Source: Escherichia phage KS_W4. Taken from it: 57,280 bases of DNA. The position numbers and the translations under genes are program-made. The notes under the pieces were generated by a model. The model searched no databases, was not told the origin of the DNA, and saw only the letters and a list, made by a program, of their open reading frames with translations. The DNA lies in the sequence record PP627281.1; one strand, given 5' to 3'. The number at the start of each line of letters is the position of its first letter. The first letter of the stretch is position 1. This document shows positions 9,664-33,114 of this stretch, one piece after another.

Positions 9664-10071
9664 ATGACCGACACCAAAAAAGCCAAAGTTGCAGTAGCTA
9701 AAAGCTTCCGTGATTTTAAAACTGTGAGCCGGGCAAATGATCCGGCTAACACTAAGCCTATGAATGTGGTTATTCCTGGTGTAGGCGACACTGGCGAAAA
9801 ACTCTACATTCGTAGCCGCTACTGCACAGAGTACCGTGACGCTGAACTGAAAGCGCAACGTCAACTGTTGGCACTTATGCAGGGTAAAGACGGTGAAGTA
9901 ACAGATGCTATGAAGGAAGACATCCTTACCCGTTCACTGTGTAACCTTGTAGCAGGTTGGACTTTTGACGAGCCACCGACTGTTGACAACGTGTTTGAGT
10001 TCTTAACGGAGAACCCAACTGTCCGAGAAGACCTTAACGTGTTTGCCGCTAAAGATAGTAATTTTTTCTAA
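9664..10071 (+). CDS. tail assembly chaperone (G-like)
   Basis: 135-aa ORF between major tail and tape measure genes; ends ...KDSNFF with slippery TTTTTTC at 10062-10068. Confidence 0.6.
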   Translation: MTDTKKAKVAVAKSFRDFKTVSRANDPANTKPMNVVIPGVGDTGEKLYIRSRYCTEYRDAELKAQRQLLALMQGKDGEVTDAMKEDILTRSLCNLVAGWTFDEPPTVDNVFEFLTENPTVREDLNVFAAKDSNFF

Positions 10072-10469
10072 AAGCGCGCAGACAGTTAATTGATAAGAAG
10101 ATCCTCCAATGGGAACTAAATAGTAAAGTCCCCGGCGGGGGATCTTCTTTATTATCGCAACTGCAAAAGGTTGAGGAACAGTCTGGTAAGACGCCACCTA
10201 AGCTTAAAGAATATCGGGAAAAGGAAATACCGCTTTGCTTCGAATATCTATCTACTTTATTTGATGATATCTACACTGGAGGAGATTTTAGTTATACAGA
10301 ATTGCACAGCTATCAAGTGACAATGGGCTTACATCTTCAACCGTACGAATGCGAAATACTGCGGCAGCTATGGCTTGAAAAGCGCGTGTCAGAAGCTGAA
10401 CAAAATGCTAAACTCATGGAAAGTCAAATGCAAAATCAAAATAAAGGTAGAAGAAAAAGGAGAAGATAA
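9664..10469 (+). CDS. tail assembly chaperone -1 frameshift fusion product (GT-like), predicted
   Basis: The -1 frame is open from 10062 to a stop at 10467-10469 that overlaps the tape-measure ATG (TAATG); U UUU UUC heptamer at the chaperone 3' end; 10-bp inverted repeat AAGAAGATCC/GGATCTTCTT at 10095-10149 downstream. Confidence 0.5.
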
Positions 10470-13400
10470 TGGCCGAAACCGCTTCGCTAGTAATCAGAGT
10501 TGACGCGAGAGGGATTAGTACCGCGGACTCTATGTTGCGGAACTTAGCGCGTACAGGTGACACAGCGGAGCGGTCTGCTCAACGTGTTACCTCCAGCTAT
10601 AAAACATTGTCTAACACATCTAACGAACTTGCAACTGTCACAAGTCGTTTAGATGCTGCAATTGTAGGAATGATTAGCGTCGACACCATTAACCGTGTTA
10701 TTTCGCTATCGGACTCATGGACTATCCTCACCAACAAACTTGAACTGGCTCGTACGGGTAATGAAACCGTTGCGGATGCGCAGCAACGCGTGTTTGATAT
10801 TGCCCAGCGGTCACGTACAAGCTTGGAAGCAACTGCAACTCTGTACTCCCGTCTCCAGCGTGCGATGAAGAATACTGGTATGACTGGTATGGAGCTTGGA
10901 CGTATCACGGAAACAATTAACAAAGCAATGATTGTTTCCGGTGCAACATCCCATGAAGCAAGTGCTGCCCTTATTCAGTTTTCGCAAGCAATGGCATCCG
11001 GTGTTCTGCGTGGGGATGAATTCCGCTCTGTTGCAGAACAAGCGCCGCGCTTAACTCAAATCATGTCCGATTCGTTAGGCGTTACTATTGGACAATTGCG
11101 TGAGCTGGCGTACAGCGGCAAGTTAACAGCCGATGTGGTTATCAAATCGTTGTCTGGTGCTGCGGATACAATTGATAAAGAATTTAGCCGCACTATGCCA
11201 ACGTTCAACCAGCAATGGACAGTTGCAACAAACAACCTGACTAAGTTTATGGGCGAATCCCAAAAGACTCAAGGTGCTGTTGCTGCATTGGGACAGACGT
11301 TTGTTGCATTATCCGAAAACTTAGGAACGGTTGTAACGGTTGGTTCAGCTTTAGCCACAGTGATTACCGCCCGTATCATCACGGCAATGTTGGCCAAGAC
11401 TAAAGCGTCTATAGCTGCTGCAAAAGCATCACGGATGGAAGCTGCACAAACGGCGGCAACTACTGCGGTGATGCAAAGCTCTATTGGCGTTACCGCACAG
11501 AAAGCGGCTGCGGATCGTGCTGCTTCGCTTGCATCGTTGCAGGTGGCACGCGGTGCATTAGCAGTTGCTAAAGGTACGGCAGCGGAAGCCGGCGCACGTC
11601 TTGCTCTTATTAACGCTACCCGTGCGCATTCTGCGGCAATTATGGCGGACGTACAAGCGCGGCAAGCGCTCAATGCTGCGCTCAATGCAACCGTACCAGC
11701 CGCAAGCCGAGCCGCTACAGCAATGAGCGTGCTGCGCGGTGCTATGGGGTTAATTGGTGGTCCTGTTGGTGTAGCAATGCTGGCAGCGGGTGCAATTTAC
11801 TCCTATAAAGCGTCGCTGGAAGCTGGTCGTGCGGAAAACAATCAGTTTGCAGATAGTGTTGATAGTGTACGCGAAAAACTAATGCAGATGACGGAAGCTC
11901 AGCTGGCAGCTAACGCTGTCAAAGCTCGCGCAATACTTCCTGAACTTGAAGAGCAAATGAAGCGGGAACAGACCGCTCTAAAATCTGCAACAGAAACGCA
12001 AAAGTTCTACGAAGCACAATTAAAACGTCGAGCTGCATCCGGTCGAGATACTGCTAGTGCGGAAAAGAACTTACAGATTGCTACGGATAACGTCAAGCTA
12101 GCTGCTGAACGCGCGGAAGACGCACAACGTCGATATAACAATGTGCTTGAAATGACAAGCCCCGCTATAGAGAAAATAATCCCTCTAGCACGTCAGCTTG
12201 CTGCGGATATGAAGGCTGTCCTTAGCATTAAATCCGGTCCGTTAATTGACGAAAAAGTATTGGATCGCTTTAAAGGTCAACTCGGGGACGTTAACCGTGA
12301 GATTGATGTTAACACGGTTAAGGGCGCTGGTAATGCTCGCCAAGCTGCAATCCTTAGTGGACTGTACCAGACGCTGGGCAAGGATGCGGATACATACGGA
12401 AGTCTTATTCGCAAAGTGGCTATGGGTCAGGACGTTAGCTCAGAGGCAACAAGCGAATCCGCTAAAGAGCTTGTTAAATACGCTCAAGATTTGGCCCAAG
12501 CTCTTGGCAAAAACTACGATCTTGAAGAAGCAGAGAGGAACCGGACTAAAGCTACAAAAGACGCTATTAAGGCAGATCAACAAAACGCTAAGGTTATTGA
12601 CGATTTACGAAACAAGCTTAACGAAGTAACCACAGGGGTTAAGGAAAACGCCAAAGCGAAAGCGCAAGCGGTGGCACTTAATAAGCTCAATGCGTCTGCA
12701 ACGGCTGCGGAAAAAGCAGAAGTTGTTAGTCTTGCTGCTGCAATTTACGATGCAGAAGAAGCTCAAAAGAAACTGGACGAGCGTAAGAAGAACCGTAAGT
12801 TTGCTCAGGGTCTGTTAGATGAAGGTATGACAGACTATGAAAAAATCGCGTACGAGCAAAATACAAAGATTGCAGAGCTTAATGCAAAACAACGAGCCGA
12901 TGATCTAGCTTACTATCAGCTTTACGAAGATGCTAAAACCCAAGTCCTGAAGAAAGCGAGCATGGAAAGGGAAAATCTGGATAAAGTTCTTATGAACCGA
13001 ATGATATCCTTTTCTCAGGAATCCTTAGGCATTATAATGGATGGACTGTCACAGGCTGTAAGCCAGCAGAACTTCTTTTATAAAGCTATGTTTGCAGCAC
13101 AGAAAGCAATGCAAATCCCGTCAATCCTTGCTAACACGGAAACGGCAGCATCCGCGGCGCTTGCATGGGGTACACAGCAAGGCGGTGCTACAATGGGCGC
13201 AACAATGGCAGCTATAGTGAAAACTATGGGCTATGCGTCAGCAGCTACTGTGGGTGGCTTAGCAATTGCTGGTATGGCTCACGACGGTATTGATAACGTT
13301 CCGCGTGAAGGTACATGGTTGCTGGATAAGGGTGAACGTGTACTTAATGCTCCGTCTAATGACAAGTTAAATCGCTTTCTGGATAGCCAAGCTTCACAAC

Positions 13401-26378: not shown

Positions 26379-26605
26379 TAGCGATCCTCGATTGCTCTAA
26401 TTGTGGTTAAATCTAATTCACAGGTTGGAGGGTATCCATAAAGTCCCATTTGTTTTCCTTGTGCATTAAACCATGTGCCTGACGGATCCTGCCACTGCTT
26501 AGGTGTCTTGTGGAGAAATACTACTCTGTTTTCACCGTAATAATTAATTCTTACGCCTGTGTGAGTATATTTACGTTTACCTTTTGGTCTTCTTAAGTTA
26601 GCCAT
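26378..26605 (-). CDS. hypothetical protein
   Basis: 75-aa ORF coupled between the DpdA and clamp-like genes. Confidence 0.4.
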   Translation of the reverse strand: MANLRRPKGKRKYTHTGVRINYYGENRVVFLHKTPKQWQDPSGTWFNAQGKQMGLYGYPPTCELDLTTIRAIEDR

Positions 26606-27525
26606 CAGAACAACTCCATTACACGATCACGGAATGTGCCGTCATGGGTGGCGTTAATGTTTGCAGCAATTACACCATACGCCCATAAGTTGAAAGCAGC
26701 ACGTGATTCATAGATTGTTGACAAACGTTCGTAAGTGAAACCGTTTTGCTCAAGGTATTTAAGGACAGCGTCTTGTTCAATTTCAGTTAATGTTGAAACA
26801 TGCTTACCAAAATGATGGCGGTCCGGTGACTTATCTGATACGCGCATTGGTCCCCACGGAGGAGTAACTACACTTCCAAACGCTGCCGCTTGAATCCAGG
26901 AGGATGAGTCACAGCTATACCACGGGTAACGTTCCATAATGGTAGTGGACGTAATACCAAATGCATGAAGCTTAATCTTAGGACGACCGCTACCATCGCA
27001 AATATATTTGTCCCACATACGATCAAGCCAAGTTTTAAGTGTGTCCGTTGAACGCCCTACCATGCCACCAATCGTGATATATTCGTAGTTCTTCATGTAA
27101 TATTCAAGATAGCGGAAGTCTTCACCGAAGTGAAAGCAGGGTAACGGTTTGGCGCCTCGTGCTTCCATTTCAAGCTGGTTACGGTATGTCTGCAACGGAT
27201 CACCGATGCCATCGAGCACCGACGCCATTACTGCACCATCTTCTACGCGAAGGATGTCTTTGTTGCGCTTAATGTATTCGCAGTATTCAACAATATCAAT
27301 GTGAGCACCCAAAGAGTGCGCGGAGAATGCACCGGAGTCGAGAAACACTTTAGCCCCGTCCGCACGCATTTGATCAACATACTTCTGACGCCCAACGTAG
27401 TGGTACGATTCCAAAATATGGGGCAGGTTGCGAGTGATATTTTTCTCATGCTCGGATAGCTTTTCGTAACGCTGCTGTCCAGGCATATATCCGTTCGTGT
27501 AAACTGCTGCCATAAAAACGTTCAT
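26605..27525 (-). CDS. dpdA: DpdA-like DNA-guanine transglycosylase (TGT family)
   Basis: 306 aa; GGAGGA RBS; FLDSGAF motif and TGT-like length; adjacent to the preQ0 synthesis genes. Confidence 0.65.
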   Translation of the reverse strand: MNVFMAAVYTNGYMPGQQRYEKLSEHEKNITRNLPHILESYHYVGRQKYVDQMRADGAKVFLDSGAFSAHSLGAHIDIVEYCEYIKRNKDILRVEDGAVMASVLDGIGDPLQTYRNQLEMEARGAKPLPCFHFGEDFRYLEYYMKNYEYITIGGMVGRSTDTLKTWLDRMWDKYICDGSGRPKIKLHAFGITSTTIMERYPWYSCDSSSWIQAAAFGSVVTPPWGPMRVSDKSPDRHHFGKHVSTLTEIEQDAVLKYLEQNGFTYERLSTIYESRAAFNLWAYGVIAANINATHDGTFRDRVMELF

Positions 27526-27799: not shown

Positions 27800-28408
27800 T
27801 TATTTACAAGCTTCAAGGAACTCCCGGCGCCATTCTTTACCAATATTGCTACCATGCTCCAGTTCTGTAGCGCCCCGGAACGCTTTGGTAATAGTAGAGC
27901 TGCCACATACCTGCTTAACCCCGCGCGATTCCATGCACATATGCTTAGCATCGATATAAACACATACAGCTTTCGGATTTAGGTGCTCCTGGATAGCGTC
28001 TGCAATCTGGTTAGTTAGACGCTCTTGCACTTGCAAGCGACGGCTAAAAGCATCAACCACGCGAGACAGTTTACTGAGCCCCACAATGCGACCGTTAGGA
28101 ACATACCCCACGACAGCGCGACCGATAATAGGGGCCATATGGTGTTCACAATGACTGTAAACAGGAATATCACGAACAATAACCATTTCATTAGTATCTT
28201 CCGCCCCGTCCTCAAAGGTCTTAAACAGACCAGCAATATCTACATCGTAACCGCCGAACCATGTAGCATAAGCTTTTGCTACACGCTCCGGAGTTTCCTC
28301 CAGCCCTGGGCGCAGAACCGCGCTAACTTCAATTTGAGATAGTAAAGTACGCACAGCGTTAGCAATACGGAATTGAACACCTTCACTATTAATACTATAT
28401 TTAGACAT
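27800..28408 (-). CDS. folE: GTP cyclohydrolase I
   Basis: about 202 aa from ATG 28408 (AAGGAAA RBS); conserved CEHHMAPI segment typical of FolE. Confidence 0.75.
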   Translation of the reverse strand: MSKYSINSEGVQFRIANAVRTLLSQIEVSAVLRPGLEETPERVAKAYATWFGGYDVDIAGLFKTFEDGAEDTNEMVIVRDIPVYSHCEHHMAPIIGRAVVGYVPNGRIVGLSKLSRVVDAFSRRLQVQERLTNQIADAIQEHLNPKAVCVYIDAKHMCMESRGVKQVCGSSTITKAFRGATELEHGSNIGKEWRREFLEACK

Positions 28409-28442
28409 GGTTTGCAGTTTCCTTGTTGTTAATGTGGTCATA

Positions 28443-28979
28443 TTACAGGCTATAGTTTACGTGACATTTCGAAGTTTCTTCGATGGTGCATTCTACAAGT
28501 TGAACACCATGTTCGTCAAGCAGTTGCGGCCCAATTACTTCAACCATGTACGCAGCCAGATTTTCAGCAGTAGGATTGAACGGTAAAGACACCAGTGAAT
28601 CGTTAAAAGCTTTAAGATCTTCATCCCCTTCACCGAAAGTAGGCCAACCGCGTTCAGATTGAGTATCCGTTTCAATACAACATTGCAGTCCGTTGATCAA
28701 CATATCCTTTTCCCAATGTAGAAACTTATGATCCCAGTTATCTTCTAGCCACTGGCAGAGCGTAGTTTTAACCACACTAAAGTCAATCACGCGCCCAACG
28801 CTGTCCAGACCGTCCTCAATCAGCTTTCCTCGTGTCACTACTTTTCCGCATCCATGCTTCGGAGCAACCTTAAAGTGAAACTTATAGTTGTGACCGTGGA
28901 GGTGGCGACATTTGCTTTCGTGACCTACAACACGATGTCCGGCGCAAATTTCATGTGAACGAATTACTGTATAGCTCAT
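28443..28979 (-). CDS. queD: 6-carboxy-5,6,7,8-tetrahydropterin synthase
   Basis: 178 aa; CxxxHGH-type signature (CAGHRVVGHESKCRHLHGHNY). Confidence 0.7.
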   Translation of the reverse strand: MSYTVIRSHEICAGHRVVGHESKCRHLHGHNYKFHFKVAPKHGCGKVVTRGKLIEDGLDSVGRVIDFSVVKTTLCQWLEDNWDHKFLHWEKDMLINGLQCCIETDTQSERGWPTFGEGDEDLKAFNDSLVSLPFNPTAENLAAYMVEVIGPQLLDEHGVQLVECTIEETSKCHVNYSL

Positions 28980-29566
28980 TTTAATACCTCTTTAGACTGT
29001 TCAATTTCTAATGCACGCTGTGCGGATGCAATAATATCTTTCAAGTCTTCTACCAGACTTTTATGACCGCGTTCGCCCGGCTGCAACGCCTTTTTAATTA
29101 AATGTTGTAAAGCTGGGTTAGTTGTTTTCCAAGCTTCCAAGACATCATACACGTCCACGATGCATTTTACAACATTGCCGTTTTGATCTTTACCATAAAT
29201 AATTTTCTGATATTTATTCATGGGAATTTTAGATGGTTCATATTTGGTAAAAACTGCACCATTAAATGTATTACTTATGCTTATTCCAGAAGAAGGTTGA
29301 TGGTACACTCCGGAGCGAGTGTTTTCGCTGGCTTGTTTGACGTAATCATCCGCAACGATATATCGCCAGGCTATAATATCTTGAACTTTATAAGGGCTAT
29401 TTTCATCCATAGCTGAACGCCCTTCTATAGCCCAATCCCATCCATGTAATAGATTCTTAACGTGTGTGCCGTTGCGCAAACGAACTTCAAACTTTTCATT
29501 GCGAAGAAAGATTGGCATTCCTTTCCCATCGTGCTGGTGCCAAATTTTATTAAGATTATCTTTCAT
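28976..29566 (-). CDS. hypothetical protein within the 7-deazaguanine cluster
   Basis: about 196 aa from ATG 29566 (track starts at TTG 29605); no motif recognised. Confidence 0.45.
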   Translation of the reverse strand: MKDNLNKIWHQHDGKGMPIFLRNEKFEVRLRNGTHVKNLLHGWDWAIEGRSAMDENSPYKVQDIIAWRYIVADDYVKQASENTRSGVYHQPSSGISISNTFNGAVFTKYEPSKIPMNKYQKIIYGKDQNGNVVKCIVDVYDVLEAWKTTNPALQHLIKKALQPGERGHKSLVEDLKDIIASAQRALEIEQSKEVLK

Positions 29567-29567
29567 T

Positions 29568-30047
29568 TTACGCTCTCGCTGTACGTGATTGAACTTCGTA
29601 AACAATCCAAAGGATAGCGGATGCTGTGAACTTACTTAAGCTCATTGCTACCATTGATCCCGGATTAACAATACCTATAATACTTAAGAACACAATGGAG
29701 TCAATCGGTACAGCTACCAAAGAGCTAATAAATACACGTTGATGAAACGGCTTCTTAGTAATCGTGTATACCGCATAGTCCGCAAACTCGCTAAGAGCAA
29801 AGGATGCAACGGATGCAACTACAACAGCAGGATCCCCAAATACCCAGCTAAGGATGCAACCAACAATCATTGCAGGGATAACGCCTTTACCAGCGTTACG
29901 CTGTGCGTAGTCACGCAACACAAAGATAATACCTACAAAGAAAGCCATCATGGGGACTACGCCAAGAGGCGTGTTAAGCATCGGAAGGTAGGAAAAGCCA
30001 AGGTTTACGAATGTAATTGCAGCCAGATAAGCAACGATAAATTTCAT
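29568..30047 (-). CDS. YhhQ/DUF165-like membrane protein (putative queuosine-precursor transporter)
   Basis: about 159 aa from ATG 30047 (GGAGAA RBS); six hydrophobic segments; pattern resembles YhhQ-family transporters. Confidence 0.45.
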   Translation of the reverse strand: MKFIVAYLAAITFVNLGFSYLPMLNTPLGVVPMMAFFVGIIFVLRDYAQRNAGKGVIPAMIVGCILSWVFGDPAVVVASVASFALSEFADYAVYTITKKPFHQRVFISSLVAVPIDSIVFLSIIGIVNPGSMVAMSLSKFTASAILWIVYEVQSRTARA

Positions 30048-30167
30048 ACTTTTGTTCTCCAGTTTTAACAGCGTTATTCGCTGGTTGTTGGGTTTAAAAG
30101 CTTTAGTAGTATAGTTGGGTCCCCGCACCCTAAACAATGCGCTAGCGGTGCGGTTTTCGCGGTAAGA

Positions 30168-30875
30168 TCAAGCTTTGCTAATAAATTCGCTGTACCCTTT
30201 AGCACGCAGTTTGCACGCAGGACATTCACCGCAACCATATCCCCAGTCATGCAGAGTGCGACGGACGCCGTTATAACACGTATGGGACTGCTCAATTACT
30301 GTGGTTAAGAAACCAACCTTATCCGCCAGCTCAAACGTTTCAGCTTTATTTAAACGCATAAGCGGAGTAACAAAATGGATATCTGTTTCATATCCAACGT
30401 TTAATGTAGCTTCAAGCAGGTCTACAAACTGCTGGCGGCAATCCGGATAACCGCTATAGTCTGTTTCACAAACGCCTGTAACCACATATCGGGCTCCAAC
30501 CTTCTGCGCGTAGGCGTGAGCGGTAGTCAGAAAAAGCGCATTACGGTTTGGCACAAAGCTTGCCGGAAGGTTGTTGTGCTGTTCGTGATGTTCGTTAACA
30601 TCACCTTCGTTCCCGATTAAAGCACTATTGCCAATCTGTTTTAAAGCAGGTAATTCAAAGACAACAAATGGGACATCGTGCTCTTTACAAATTTGATTAG
30701 CACAAGCCAGCTCAATGTTATGACGTTGACCGTATGCAAAACCAATAGCGTAGACCTTATCATAGTTATTAAGGGCAAGACCCAAACAGGTCACGCTGTC
30801 CTGGCCGCCAGACAGGACGACAACGGCGGAGTTATGATTTTTTACAGGGAATACCAGTTTATCTAATTTATTCAT
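30168..30875 (-). CDS. queC: 7-cyano-7-deazaguanine synthase
   Basis: about 235 aa from ATG 30875; PP-loop SGGQDS motif; C-terminal Cys cluster (CGECPAC). Confidence 0.8.
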   Translation of the reverse strand: MNKLDKLVFPVKNHNSAVVVLSGGQDSVTCLGLALNNYDKVYAIGFAYGQRHNIELACANQICKEHDVPFVVFELPALKQIGNSALIGNEGDVNEHHEQHNNLPASFVPNRNALFLTTAHAYAQKVGARYVVTGVCETDYSGYPDCRQQFVDLLEATLNVGYETDIHFVTPLMRLNKAETFELADKVGFLTTVIEQSHTCYNGVRRTLHDWGYGCGECPACKLRAKGYSEFISKA

Positions 30876-31270: not shown

Positions 31271-31525
31271 TTAAACCTCCGTTAATGTTTGAGTCCAGTC
31301 TAAGCCTTCAAGGTCTACATCAGCTATTTCATCGTACTCGTAAGCTCCCGGATCTGCTGGCAGCCATCTATCAAATCGATGGCTGAGTTCTGGAGGAATT
31401 GCTTCATACCCCCAAACCTTCCCATCCTTGTCGGCTGCCAGATAATCAACTCGACTTGGAACGGTTAAAGTGACACCACAAAAATTAACATCTTTAGTAT
31501 GCACAACCTGACTTAATACACGCAT
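31271..31525 (-). CDS. hypothetical protein (VDLEGxDW family)
   Basis: 84 aa; C-terminal ADVDLEGLDWTQTLTEV shared with the ORF at 52069-52374. Confidence 0.45.
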   Translation of the reverse strand: MRVLSQVVHTKDVNFCGVTLTVPSRVDYLAADKDGKVWGYEAIPPELSHRFDRWLPADPGAYEYDEIADVDLEGLDWTQTLTEV

Positions 31526-32232
31526 TATTCCACCCCGATATATTTGTGAACCTGAAGCTGCAACGTGTACCCGTGTTTCATACAGCTTTTGACAACCGCT
31601 TGGATGTTACTGTGGTTAAGATCTTCATCCTGCTCGTCCATTGGCTGTAAATATATCTTACCCTTGAACCCCTTCGGAGGTCTAGCGATAAATGGCGTAG
31701 CTTGATGATCTAATGCCTGAAGCGGTAAACCGTCTTCCACGTTTACACAGCACGCTTTAAGCACATATTTAAATGCGTTTGCTCGGTACAGCACAGTAGG
31801 ATGAATTTTTGAAGTCTTAGGACTGCATACAATGACAGGCAGCTGGGAAAAGTTCTTAGGTAAAGGCATAGACCCATTCGTTTCAATTTGTACAAGATAC
31901 CCGCGCGATAAGAGTTGTTCGACAAACGGGTTAATTTGCTGACGGAACGGTTCACCCCCAGTAATAACCACAAGTGAGGTGCTATTGCCTGATTCCAGCT
32001 TACGGCTTTCGATTAAACGCATGATATCAACAATGTGATAAAGAGAACGACCTACAGTATAGTCAGTATCACAGCCCGGACATTGCAGGTTACACCCAGC
32101 AAGTCGCACAAATACAGCAGGTTGGCCGCAGAATGGCCCTTCACCCTGAATGGTAGAGAATACCGAATGCACGTCTAAATACATATCGTTTTCTTTAGAA
32201 CGAGACTCGGGAGCTTGTTGATTAATATTCAT
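31525..32232 (-). CDS. queE: 7-carboxy-7-deazaguanine synthase (radical SAM)
   Basis: 235 aa; CNLQCPGC (Cx3Cx2C-type) cluster; GGEP motif; RBS AGAGGA. Confidence 0.75.
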   Translation of the reverse strand: MNINQQAPESRSKENDMYLDVHSVFSTIQGEGPFCGQPAVFVRLAGCNLQCPGCDTDYTVGRSLYHIVDIMRLIESRKLESGNSTSLVVITGGEPFRQQINPFVEQLLSRGYLVQIETNGSMPLPKNFSQLPVIVCSPKTSKIHPTVLYRANAFKYVLKACCVNVEDGLPLQALDHQATPFIARPPKGFKGKIYLQPMDEQDEDLNHSNIQAVVKSCMKHGYTLQLQVHKYIGVE

Positions 32233-32246
32233 CTTAAATCCTCTAG

Positions 32247-32276
32247 TGAAAAAGAAAGCGCCTCATTGGGCGCTTT
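32247..32276 (-). terminator. rho-independent terminator
   Basis: AAAGCGCC-CAATGA-GGCGCTTT followed by CTTTTTC on the minus strand. Confidence 0.65.
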
Positions 32277-32301
32277 CATTATAACGTGATATGTTTTGAT
32301 A

Positions 32302-33114
32302 TTACAAGCCGTTCAGGGCTTCCGGTACTGGTACAGGTACGCGACCAGTCACACCATTAAATTTCTTCCAGCGTGCATACTGGGTTTTAACGGTATCTTC
32401 GTTCAGCCCATGGCGACCGGCCAGATTCAGAACATAAGAGATCGGAGCAGGTTGGCCCAGCGTAGCGCTAATCTGGTCCATCAGAGCCCAAGCACGACCG
32501 CAGGAAGTTTCCGGTTGCGGACGGCGAACACCGTTCTGTTCCGGCATACGATTAGCTTCTTTTTCTTTCTCGCGGAGTTCTTTAGCGCGTGCTTTTTCCG
32601 CTTCTTTTTCTGCCTGTTTTGCAGCACGGATCTTGTCTTTGAAGCCTTTAATAGTAGCTTCCAGACCATCCACCAGACCCTGGGCAGAAGTTACAGCACC
32701 GGACAGGTCTTCACCTTTAGACTTCTTAACGACAGCTTTCAGCTCTTTCAGAGCTTCTTTAATGGTCTTCAGGTTTGCAGATCCCTGAGTTTCTGCTTCC
32801 GTGATCTGTTCAACAGTGCTTTCGTCGGTGACGGTAGCCAAAGAGTTTTTCAGGATTTCAGCAGCGTTAGCAATCGCATTAAATTTGTTTTCCGCTTCAG
32901 TGCGGATTTCAGCTTGTTTCTTTTCAGCGGCAGCTTTTTTCTCTGCTTCTTTTTTCTCTTTTGCTACGCGTGCAGCTTCAGCAGCAGCGGCTTTCTTAGC
33001 TTCTGCATCATTCACAGTAGCTTCTTTCTTTGCAGGTTTAGCAGATTTTGCAGCGGCAGCAGCGGCAGCAGCGGCAGCGGCTTTTTTATCTTCAATGTTG
33101 CTCATTCTCTTCAC
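32302..33114 (-). CDS. Ala/Lys/Glu-rich protein with conserved C-terminal domain
   Basis: 270 aa; poly-Ala tract encoded by GCN repeats at 33050-33082; C-terminal about 45 aa shared with the ORF at 48588-49202. Confidence 0.5.
   Translation of the reverse strand: MKRMSNIEDKKAAAAAAAAAAAKSAKPAKKEATVNDAEAKKAAAAEAARVAKEKKEAEKKAAAEKKQAEIRTEAENKFNAIANAAEILKNSLATVTDESTVEQITEAETQGSANLKTIKEALKELKAVVKKSKGEDLSGAVTSAQGLVDGLEATIKGFKDKIRAAKQAEKEAEKARAKELREKEKEANRMPEQNGVRRPQPETSCGRAWALMDQISATLGQPAPISYVLNLAGRHGLNEDTVKTQYARWKKFNGVTGRVPVPVPEALNGL

What the first reader, a model, noticed from the sequence alone, without database searches (positions are those of the whole stretch)
29568..30047. Phage-encoded YhhQ-like membrane protein (possible queuosine-precursor transporter)
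A six-helix membrane protein with a YhhQ/DUF165-like pattern sits between the que genes. A precursor importer in a phage would let it salvage preQ0/preQ1 from the environment or host pool in addition to de novo synthesis. That combination is unusual.
Basis: inference. Interest (0 to 1): 0.5.

Follow-up and report, generated by a model that had tools for sequence, protein, structure and literature searches.

The report
Known phage YhhQ-type preQ0 transporter gene
The ORF is a real, compact (159 aa, six-segment) member of the YhhQ/VUT family of queuosine-precursor transporters inside the DNA-modification gene cluster of a Seuratvirus coliphage, but it is already annotated and published as the "putative preQ0 transporter yhhQ" of phage CAjan and its relatives, so it is ordinary.

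Summary
Observation confirmed. Window 29568-30047 (minus strand) is a 159-aa ORF with a GGAG ribosome-binding site. It has six hydrophobic segments and lies between queC and queD in a dpdA-folE-queD-x-yhhQ-queC-queE cluster.

The window is a Seuratvirus genome, about 97% identical to Escherichia phages GottfriedDienst, Greed and CAjan. The same gene (97-99% aa identity) is annotated there as "preQ0 transporter (YhhQ)".

Homology to YhhQ/COG1738/PF02592 is real but remote:
- Single-sequence hits fall just under the curated cut-offs (Pfam 25.2 vs 27.2 bits).
- BLASTP against E. coli YhhQ is not significant.
- A profile-profile comparison gives 99.7% probability, and all family-wide invariant residues are kept.

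Two further results:
- dN/dS is 0.02-0.06, so the gene is under strong purifying selection.
- 35 of 39 non-redundant viral loci carrying this short form also carry a DpdA DNA transglycosylase. In 25 of them DpdA sits next to it and no que genes are in the flanks.

Best explanation: an importer of the 7-deazaguanine base (preQ0) that feeds DpdA. Transport by the phage protein is untested, and a published CAjan ΔyhhQ phage keeps its DNA modification.

Novelty: already known. Interest: low.

The parts
29568..30047 (-). yhhQ-like CDS (159 aa plus stop): a compact VUT/COG1738/PF02592 membrane protein and putative preQ0 importer
   Evidence: ORF and translation. Pfam Vut_1 E 2.3e-5. hhalign to the E. 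coli YhhQ profile gives 99.7% probability. 97.5-99.4% aa identity to the CAjan gp41 and Greed 'putative preQ0 transporter'. dN/dS 0.02-0.06.
30057..30060 (-). Shine-Dalgarno GGAG, 9 nt upstream of the ATG
   Evidence: Read directly from the sequence.
28976..29566 (-). Unknown conserved ORF (CAjan gp40-like, phrog_23361). Its ATG starts 1 nt after the yhhQ stop (TAAAATG), so it is probably translationally coupled.
   Evidence: PHROG match starts at residue 14 of the TTG-ORF, E 4.9e-101. Sequence read. Annotated as a hypothetical protein in CAjan and GottfriedDienst.
30168..30875 (-). queC (7-cyano-7-deazaguanine synthase), immediately upstream
   Evidence: Pfam QueC 250.8 bits; TIGR00364 242.7 bits. 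The start was chosen as in GottfriedDienst.
28443..28979 (-). queD (6-carboxytetrahydropterin synthase)
   Evidence: Pfam PTPS 79.6 bits.
27800..28441 (-). folE (GTP cyclohydrolase I); coordinates are those of the longest ORF
   Evidence: Pfam GTP_cyclohydroI 212.3 bits.
26605..27525 (-). dpdA (DNA guanine transglycosylase that inserts preQ0), the presumed consumer of the imported base
   Evidence: phrog_887 E 2.3e-96. Annotated as the '7-deazaguanosine inserting enzyme DpdA' in GottfriedDienst. No Pfam hit.
31525..32232 (-). queE (7-carboxy-7-deazaguanine synthase, radical SAM)
   Evidence: Weak Pfam Radical_SAM and Fer4_12 hits. Annotated as QueE in CAjan and GottfriedDienst.

Best explanation
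The gene encodes a compact six-segment inner-membrane protein of the VUT/QPTR (YhhQ, COG1738, PF02592) family. It is expressed from the phage's 7-deazaguanine operon and inserted into the host inner membrane with both termini in the cytoplasm. There it most likely acts as a stand-alone, S-component-like importer. It would bind the free base preQ0 (possibly also preQ1) through conserved polar residues in the membrane core: N15, D46, S79, E87/D90, S108, D116 and K139. It would then release the base into the cytoplasm, adding to the preQ0 made by the phage FolE-QueD-QueE-QueC enzymes. DpdA then swaps the base for guanine in phage DNA, which protects the DNA from restriction.

Shown here: homology, predicted topology, the conserved residue set, purifying selection and genetic linkage to DpdA.

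Inferred: the substrate, the inward direction, and that no partner protein is needed.

In this phage the role is supplementary: scavenging or recapturing the base when synthesis is limiting. It is not essential in rich medium.
For: - Family membership by profile: hhalign of the short-form alignment against the E. coli YhhQ-containing alignment gives 99.7% probability, E 3.5e-25. 41 of 41 short forms hit Pfam Vut_1. The single sequence scores E 2.3e-5 and hits TIGR00697 at E 1.2e-4.
- In a joint alignment of 56 long and short forms, the invariant columns are all present in the phage protein. They are N15/N28, D46/D57, A78-S79/A114-S115, D90/D126, S108/S146, D116/D154 and F120/F158 (phage/E. coli numbering).
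- The positive-inside pattern fits six TM segments with N-in/C-in topology, as for E. coli YhhQ.
- Linkage: of 39 non-redundant (90% identity) short-form VUT genes in viral and metagenomic loci, 9 lie with a full preQ0 pathway plus DpdA and 1 with QueC plus DpdA. Another 25 abut a DpdA with no que gene in up to 10 kb of flank. The DpdA is either the long type (phrog_887) or the ~200-aa type annotated 'DpdA-like' in actinophages.
- Some bacterial chromosomal short forms sit next to tgt or queC.
- Purifying selection: dN/dS 0.02-0.06.
- E. coli YhhQ is an experimentally supported preQ0/preQ1 transporter (PMC5372724; PMC11130926).
Against: - No uptake experiment exists for any phage copy in the literature searched.
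- A CAjan ΔyhhQ phage shows the same level and pattern of preQ0 modification as wild type in BHI medium (PMC7544227).
- Single-sequence scores are below the curated thresholds: 25.2 vs 27.2 bits for Pfam and 21.9 vs 50.95 for TIGR00697.
- BLASTP against E. coli YhhQ is not significant, E 1.2.
- The protein is 28% shorter than E. coli YhhQ (159 vs 221 aa).
- Substrate specificity differs within the family. E. coli YhhQ takes preQ0/preQ1, whereas the Chlamydia protein takes queuine, so preQ0 is an inference from context.
- There is no preQ1 riboswitch upstream.
- Most bacterial short forms (about 70 of 80 loci) have no Q-related neighbour.
- The host already has its own yhhQ.
Confidence: 0.7

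Rival explanations
1. It is a VUT-family transporter with a different substrate or direction. It could import queuine, preQ1, CDG or another purine-like base. It could also export something, for example excess pathway intermediates or the guanine released by DpdA.
For: Specificity varies inside the family: E. coli takes preQ0/preQ1 and Chlamydia takes queuine (PMC11130926). The short form is a distinct subfamily, only about 20% identical to E. coli YhhQ. Other phage DpdA families insert bases other than preQ0 (PMC10516641). ΔyhhQ has no effect on preQ0 modification. Metagenomic fusions to nucleoside 2-deoxyribosyltransferase-like and HD domains suggest links to nucleoside or nucleotide salvage more broadly.
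Against: In this genus the DNA modification is preQ0, and the gene sits inside the preQ0 operon. In 25 non-redundant loci the gene's only pathway partner is DpdA, which needs a 7-deazaguanine base supplied from elsewhere. Every characterised family member imports.
Confidence: 0.2
2. It has a non-transport membrane role. It could anchor or organise the modification enzymes at the membrane. It could interfere with the host YhhQ. It could also act in superinfection exclusion or lysis timing.
For: There is no phenotype for DNA modification when the gene is deleted. It is small for a transporter (159 aa). Foldseek hits in the viral library include some holin-annotated small membrane proteins at non-significant E-values.
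Against: All family-invariant polar intramembrane residues are conserved, which argues for ligand binding and not for a scaffold. The fold matches substrate-binding S-components. The gene lies in the replication/modification module, not the lysis module.
Confidence: 0.06
3. It is not a functional gene: a chance ORF or a decaying remnant.
For: It is dispensable in the laboratory, and its single-sequence family scores are sub-threshold.
Against: dN/dS is 0.02-0.06, with up to 38 synonymous and 0 non-synonymous differences. It has a good SD site. It is conserved from coliphages to Vibrio and Rhizobium phages. The library holds 95 clusters at 50% identity with E <= 1e-30.
Confidence: 0.01

Closest known systems
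Escherichia phage CAjan gp41 (YP_009196835.1, 'putative preQ0 transporter', called yhhQ in Kot et al. 2020) and its orthologues in the Seuratvirus phages Greed, GottfriedDienst (bas21_0044, 'preQ0 transporter YhhQ'), WildeMaa and others
   Same: Same gene: 97.5-99.4% aa identity, same length (159 aa), and the same position directly downstream of queC in the same operon.
   Different: Only a few conservative substitutions. This window has one ORF between yhhQ and queD where CAjan has two, gp40 and gp39.
E. coli YhhQ / QPTR (COG1738, PF02592 Vut_1, TIGR00697), the experimentally supported preQ0/preQ1 importer
   Same: Homologous by profile-profile comparison (99.7%). Same six-segment N-in/C-in topology. 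Same invariant residues: N, D, AS, D, S, D and F. Functionally linked to 7-deazaguanine genes.
   Different: About 20% identity, and pairwise BLASTP is not significant. It is 159 aa against 221 aa. It lacks the 13-aa N-terminal extension, about 5 aa after the RD motif, about 20 aa of the loop between segments 3 and 4, about 8 aa between segments 5 and 6, and the C-terminal tail. The product feeds a DNA transglycosylase, not tRNA TGT. Transport is untested.
Compact bacterial VUT proteins of Desulfovibrionaceae and Aestuariivirga/Hyphomicrobiales (150-165 aa)
   Same: Same short architecture, 37-50% identity. A few sit next to tgt or queC.
   Different: They are chromosomal, and 78 of 80 loci have no DpdA nearby. 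They are uncharacterised.
ECF-transporter S-components, including the solitary cobalamin transporter BtuM and the predicted preQ1 S-components QueT/QrtT

Membership tests
VUT / QPTR (YhhQ, COG1738, Pfam PF02592 Vut_1, NCBIfam TIGR00697) | The single sequence reaches the curated family score | tested here: not met
   Pfam Vut_1 scores 25.2 bits against a gathering score of 27.2 (E 2.3e-5, covering only residues 66-145). TIGR00697 scores 21.9 bits against 50.95. These are significant E-values that fall below the curated cut-offs.
VUT / QPTR (YhhQ, COG1738, Pfam PF02592 Vut_1, NCBIfam TIGR00697) | Homology to bona fide members at profile level | tested here: met
   hhalign of the 41-sequence short-form alignment against an alignment headed by E. 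coli YhhQ gives 99.7% probability, E 3.5e-25, over 131 columns. 41 of 41 members hit Vut_1 at E <= 0.01. Many homologues carry a precomputed PF02592 hit.
VUT / QPTR (YhhQ, COG1738, Pfam PF02592 Vut_1, NCBIfam TIGR00697) | Six transmembrane segments with a cytoplasmic C-terminus | tested here: met
   Six hydrophobic segments. K/R distribution across 41 sequences fits N-in/C-in. The AF2 model is all-helical, but DSSP merges segments 2 and 3. This is prediction only.
VUT / QPTR (YhhQ, COG1738, Pfam PF02592 Vut_1, NCBIfam TIGR00697) | Family-invariant residues present | tested here: met
   N15, D46, R50, G53, A78, S79, D90, S108, D116 and F120 align with E. coli N28, D57, R61, G64, A114, S115, D126, S146, D154 and F158. 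The columns are 96-100% conserved over 56 sequences.
VUT / QPTR (YhhQ, COG1738, Pfam PF02592 Vut_1, NCBIfam TIGR00697) | Genomic association with queuosine/7-deazaguanine genes | tested here: met
   In the window the gene lies between queC and queD. A DpdA gene is present in 35 of 39 non-redundant viral loci. tgt or queC is adjacent in 9 of 80 bacterial loci.
VUT / QPTR (YhhQ, COG1738, Pfam PF02592 Vut_1, NCBIfam TIGR00697) | Transports preQ0/preQ1 (or queuine) into the cell | not testable with these tools
   This needs complementation of an E. coli ΔqueD ΔyhhQ strain or an uptake assay. The published CAjan ΔyhhQ phage shows no loss of modification, which neither proves nor disproves transport.
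VUT / QPTR (YhhQ, COG1738, Pfam PF02592 Vut_1, NCBIfam TIGR00697) | preQ1 riboswitch control (frequent in bacteria, not defining) | tested here: not met
   No Rfam match above noise in 29900-30400 at E <= 10. None was found in 7 bacterial short-form loci either.
ECF-transporter S-component | S-component fold (six-helix substrate-binding membrane protein) | tested here: inconclusive
ECF-transporter S-component | Works with an EcfT/EcfA-A' energising module | not tested
   No such genes are annotated in the cluster region of the two close relatives examined. E. coli is, to my knowledge, devoid of ECF modules (own knowledge, not tested here).

The most novel reading that the evidence does not exclude
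The compact VUT may be more than an occasional passenger of que clusters. It may be the supply arm of a minimal two-gene 'import-and-insert' DNA-hypermodification module, Vut-DpdA. In about two thirds of non-redundant viral loci carrying this subfamily, its only pathway partner is an abutting DpdA, and no synthesis genes are present. That would mean many (mostly temperate or marine) phages modify their DNA purely from a salvaged 7-deazaguanine base. In Seuratvirus the gene would then be kept under strong purifying selection because preQ0 supply, or recapture of leaked base, limits modification in nature even though it does not in rich laboratory medium.
Probability: 0.4. Interest if true: 0.4.

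Novelty: already known. Interest (0 to 1): 0.15.

Why it matters
For this window it matters little. The gene, its family assignment and the salvage hypothesis are already in GenBank annotations and in several papers, and a deletion mutant has been published.

Two questions remain open. The first is whether the compact phage form really transports preQ0. The second is why a phage with a complete synthesis pathway keeps the gene under strong purifying selection.

The tight Vut-DpdA pairing in phages that lack synthesis genes suggests that base salvage may be the main supply route for DNA 7-deazaguanine modification in many uncultured phages. That idea could be tested with simple feeding experiments.

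Tried and rejected
- Direct BLASTP of the phage protein against E. coli YhhQ found no significant alignment, E 1.2. Homology had to be shown by profiles.
- A sequence search of all PDB chains found nothing relevant. Foldseek against the PDB gave no hit better than E 0.78. The AlphaFold-database library (afdb50) was not available, so the model could not be compared directly with the AFDB model of YhhQ.
- I looked for a preQ1 riboswitch or other known RNA in the 120-nt queC-yhhQ spacer and found none. The spacer folds with a GC hairpin (30123-30153) but is no more stable than shuffled sequence, z = -1.14. The promoter/terminator scan gave nothing convincing at the gene.
- No preQ1 riboswitch was found upstream of bacterial short forms in 7 loci.
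- I tested the idea that the short form is phage-exclusive and rejected it. 203 stretches in bacterial genomes match, mostly Desulfovibrionaceae and Hyphomicrobiales, and nearly all lack DpdA.
- I tested whether the metagenomic protein P0149 is a Vut-QueD fusion. This is not supported: BLASTP E 0.53, no family hit.
- A single-query phmmer search for DpdA missed most divergent DpdA genes. Iterated HMMs and an hhalign test were needed.

Full report
**1. What is at the coordinates**

Window 29568-30047 holds a 159-codon ORF on the minus strand, with ATG at 30047 and TAA at 29570-29568. GGAG at 30060-30057 lies 9 nt before the ATG. The next gene's ATG (29566) follows the stop after one base (TAAAATG), so the two genes are probably translated as part of one operon.

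The neighbouring ORFs on the same strand were identified by family searches:
- DpdA, 26605-27525 (phrog_887, E 2.3e-96)
- FolE, 27800-28441
- QueD, 28443-28979
- an unknown gp40-like ORF, 28976-29566
- QueC, 30168-30875
- QueE, 31525-32232

**2. What genome this is**

The region is 97.4% identical over 2 kb to Escherichia phage GottfriedDienst. It is 91-97% identical to about 30 other Seuratvirus (Queuovirinae) coliphages, including Greed, CAjan and Seurat.

The protein is 97.5-99.4% identical to products annotated 'putative preQ0 transporter' (CAjan gp41, Greed, CSP1C) or 'preQ0 transporter YhhQ' (the BASEL phages).

**3. Is it a YhhQ/DUF165 protein?**

Evidence from the single sequence is weak:
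- Pfam Vut_1 matches at E 2.3e-5 but scores 25.2 bits against a 27.2-bit cut-off, and only residues 66-145 align.
- TIGR00697 scores 21.9 bits against 50.95.
- BLASTP against E. coli K-12 YhhQ (fetched) is not significant, E 1.2.

Evidence at family level is clear:
- A database search returned 118 relatives. Most are 150-165 aa, and they grade into 187-193-aa proteins named 'queuosine precursor transporter'.
- All 41 aligned short forms hit Vut_1.
- Their profile aligns to a profile headed by E. coli YhhQ with 99.7% probability, E 3.5e-25.
- In a joint alignment of 56 sequences, the columns conserved at 96-100% are all present in the phage protein. These are N15, D46, R50, G53, A78-S79, D90, S108, D116 and F120, corresponding to E. 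coli N28, D57, R61, G64, A114-S115, D126, S146, D154 and F158.
- The phage protein is a trimmed version of YhhQ. It lacks the N-terminal 13 residues, about 5 residues after the RD motif, about 20 residues of the loop between segments 3 and 4, about 8 residues between segments 5 and 6, and the C-terminal tail.

**4. Architecture**

Hydropathy shows six hydrophobic segments. Across the 41-sequence alignment, K+R residues concentrate at the N-terminus, in loops 45-55 and 98-104, and at the C-terminus. They are absent from the three alternate loops. This predicts six TM segments with both termini in the cytoplasm, as reported for E. coli YhhQ (PMC5372724).

AlphaFold2 with the 41-sequence alignment gives a confident all-helical model (pLDDT 83.8, pTM 0.72). 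DSSP joins segments 2 and 3 into one helix, 38-70.

**5. Evidence bearing on function**

(a) Selection. Among five Seuratvirus copies, dS is 0.18-0.44 and dN is 0-0.018, giving dN/dS of 0.02-0.06. The gene is maintained.

(b) Linkage in viruses. I fetched 58 IMG/VR loci and 8 metagenome loci that carry a short-form VUT. I searched their stop-to-stop ORFs with iterated HMMs seeded from the window's proteins.
- 62 of the 66 loci contain a DpdA-type gene.
- After collapsing VUT proteins at 90% identity there are 39 groups.
- 9 groups have the full FolE/QueD/QueE/QueC set plus DpdA, and 1 has QueC plus DpdA.
- 25 groups have a DpdA abutting or overlapping the VUT gene, with no que gene within the flanks held (up to 10 kb).
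- 4 groups have none, and one of these is at a contig end.
- The abutting DpdA is either the ~230-300-aa phrog_887 type or a ~200-aa type (phrog_15826).
- The ~200-aa type aligns to the DpdA profile at 92.8% probability, E 3.9e-7. It is annotated 'DpdA-like tRNA-guanine transglycosylase' in Mycobacterium and Arthrobacter phages.
- In phages, then, the most constant partner of this VUT subfamily is the enzyme that consumes the free base.

(c) Linkage in bacteria. The short form is not phage-specific. 203 stretches in GTDB genomes match, mainly Desulfovibrionaceae and Aestuariivirga/Hyphomicrobiales. Of the 80 loci kept, 78 have no DpdA. Six have bacterial tgt within 1.5 kb, for example in Desulfovibrio desulfuricans (Pfam TGT 526 bits). 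Three have queC abutting. No preQ1 riboswitch was found in seven of these loci, nor upstream of the phage gene.

(d) Diversity. A full HMM scan of 1.84 billion representatives found 95 clusters at E <= 1e-30 and 642 at E <= 1e-10.

**6. What is already published**

- Hutinet et al. 2017 noted yhhQ embedded in dpd clusters and suggested that salvaged preQ0 could enter DNA (PMC5699537).
- Hutinet et al. 2019 included YhhQ in their phage survey. They found homologues in 'some phages' with no correlation to a particular group (PMC6884629).
- Kot et al. 2020 drew yhhQ in the CAjan cluster as the putative preQ0 transporter and made a CRISPR deletion. The ΔyhhQ phage stayed restriction-resistant and showed wild-type modification (36.0% vs 34.9% of G positions called). 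ΔfolE, ΔqueC and ΔdpdA lost the modification (PMC7544227).
- The EC151 paper built a tree of phage 'preQ0 transporters' that included Seuratvirus and Vibrio phages (PMC8310023).
- The iggy paper repeats the CAjan annotation (PMC10484667).
- I found no paper reporting transport by a phage copy.

One detail is my own inference from the numbers. The ΔyhhQ genome is 550 bp shorter than wild type, with the deletion listed at 31,850. Yet yhhQ is only 480 bp (32084-32563), and gp40 occupies 31513-32082. That mutant therefore probably also lacks the start of gp40.

**7. Most likely mechanism**

The gene is expressed with the modification operon. The protein inserts into the host inner membrane and imports free preQ0 (perhaps also preQ1) as a solitary S-component-like carrier. 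The base joins the pool made by the phage enzymes and is inserted into DNA by DpdA.

Homology, topology, residue conservation, selection and linkage are shown here. Substrate, direction and independence from partners are inferred. In this phage the role is supplementary and dispensable in rich medium. In the many phages that carry only Vut plus DpdA it could be the main phage-encoded supply route. Confidence is about 0.7.

Rivals:
- Another substrate or direction, 0.2. The family includes queuine-specific members.
- A non-transport membrane role, about 0.06.
- A non-functional ORF, about 0.01, contradicted.

**8. Verdict**

The finding is already known, and the 'unusual combination' is the norm for this phage genus.

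The modest additions from this work are as follows:
- The phage protein belongs to a compact subfamily that retains every invariant residue of YhhQ.
- The gene is under strong purifying selection.
- Across viral contigs the subfamily is linked above all to DpdA, often without any synthesis genes.

Limits:
- The viral and bacterial loci were recruited through a single peptide pattern, FVxRDYAQ(R).
- The HMMs were ad hoc.
- The flanks held are finite.
- The structural comparison rests on a predicted model.

Noticed in passing
L003 8001-9214; L009 4598-5967; L031, L036, L039, L041, L045, L050, L054 and others: Two-gene Vut-DpdA modules. In 25 of 39 non-redundant viral loci the short-form VUT gene abuts or overlaps a DpdA-type transglycosylase, and no FolE, QueD, QueE or QueC gene lies in up to 10 kb of flank. 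Several of these loci look temperate (integrase, repressor, ParA).
   Followed up: partly
L006 8468-9091; L034, L035, L040, L042, L044, L046, L057, L063, L065 (downstream of Vut): A ~200-aa protein family (phrog_15826) has no Pfam hit. It carries the motifs DNGCF, APDVV, GGST.WK, GRVN and CDSVDGT. It aligns to DpdA at hhalign 92.8%, E 3.9e-7, and is annotated 'DpdA-like tRNA-guanine transglycosylase' in Mycobacterium and Arthrobacter phages. It is a minimal DpdA.
   Followed up: partly
Proteins P0232, P0205, P0123, P0125, P0149: These metagenomic proteins fuse the short-form VUT to other domains. P0232 is fused to a nucleoside 2-deoxyribosyltransferase-like domain (PF05014, E 1.2e-8), and P0205 appears to carry the same domain by eye. 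P0123 and P0125 are fused to an HD/YfbR-like 5'-deoxynucleotidase-like domain (weak, E 3.4e-3). The C-terminal domain of P0149 is unidentified, and a QueD resemblance was not supported.
   Followed up: partly
window 28976-29566 (-): A conserved unknown ORF (phrog_23361; CAjan gp40-like) starts 1 nt after the yhhQ stop. Its C-terminal ~60-90 residues match several other PHROGs of unknown function. The published CAjan 'ΔyhhQ' deletion (550 bp at 31,850) probably removes the 5' end of its CAjan homologue gp40 as well.
   Followed up: partly
L078 10995-12182 (tgt) next to Vut 10001-10489; L074 10599-11168 (queC) next to Vut 9992-10480: Compact VUT genes are chromosomal in Desulfovibrionaceae and in Aestuariivirga/Hyphomicrobiales (203 matching stretches in GTDB genomes). 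A few sit beside tgt or queC. Most have no Q-related neighbour, and no preQ1 riboswitch was found in the seven loci scanned.
   Followed up: partly
window 32302-33114 (-): A 270-aa Ala/Lys/Glu-rich, low-complexity protein with a run of ten alanines near the N-terminus lies just upstream of queE. It has no NCBIfam hit (Pfam was not run on it). The protein at the corresponding position in CAjan (gp46) is labelled 'FtrA domain' protein.
   Followed up: no
window 30123-30153 (-), in the 120-nt queC-yhhQ spacer: A GC-rich hairpin (CCGCACC...GGTGCGG) with no following T-run. It has no Rfam match, and the spacer as a whole folds no better than shuffled sequence (z = -1.14).
   Followed up: yes
window 26605-27525 (-): The phage DpdA gets no Pfam TGT hit at E <= 1 and only 17 bits against NCBIfam DpdA (cut-off 200), although it matches phrog_887 at E 2.3e-96. 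Standard domain libraries miss this DpdA1-type enzyme.
   Followed up: no
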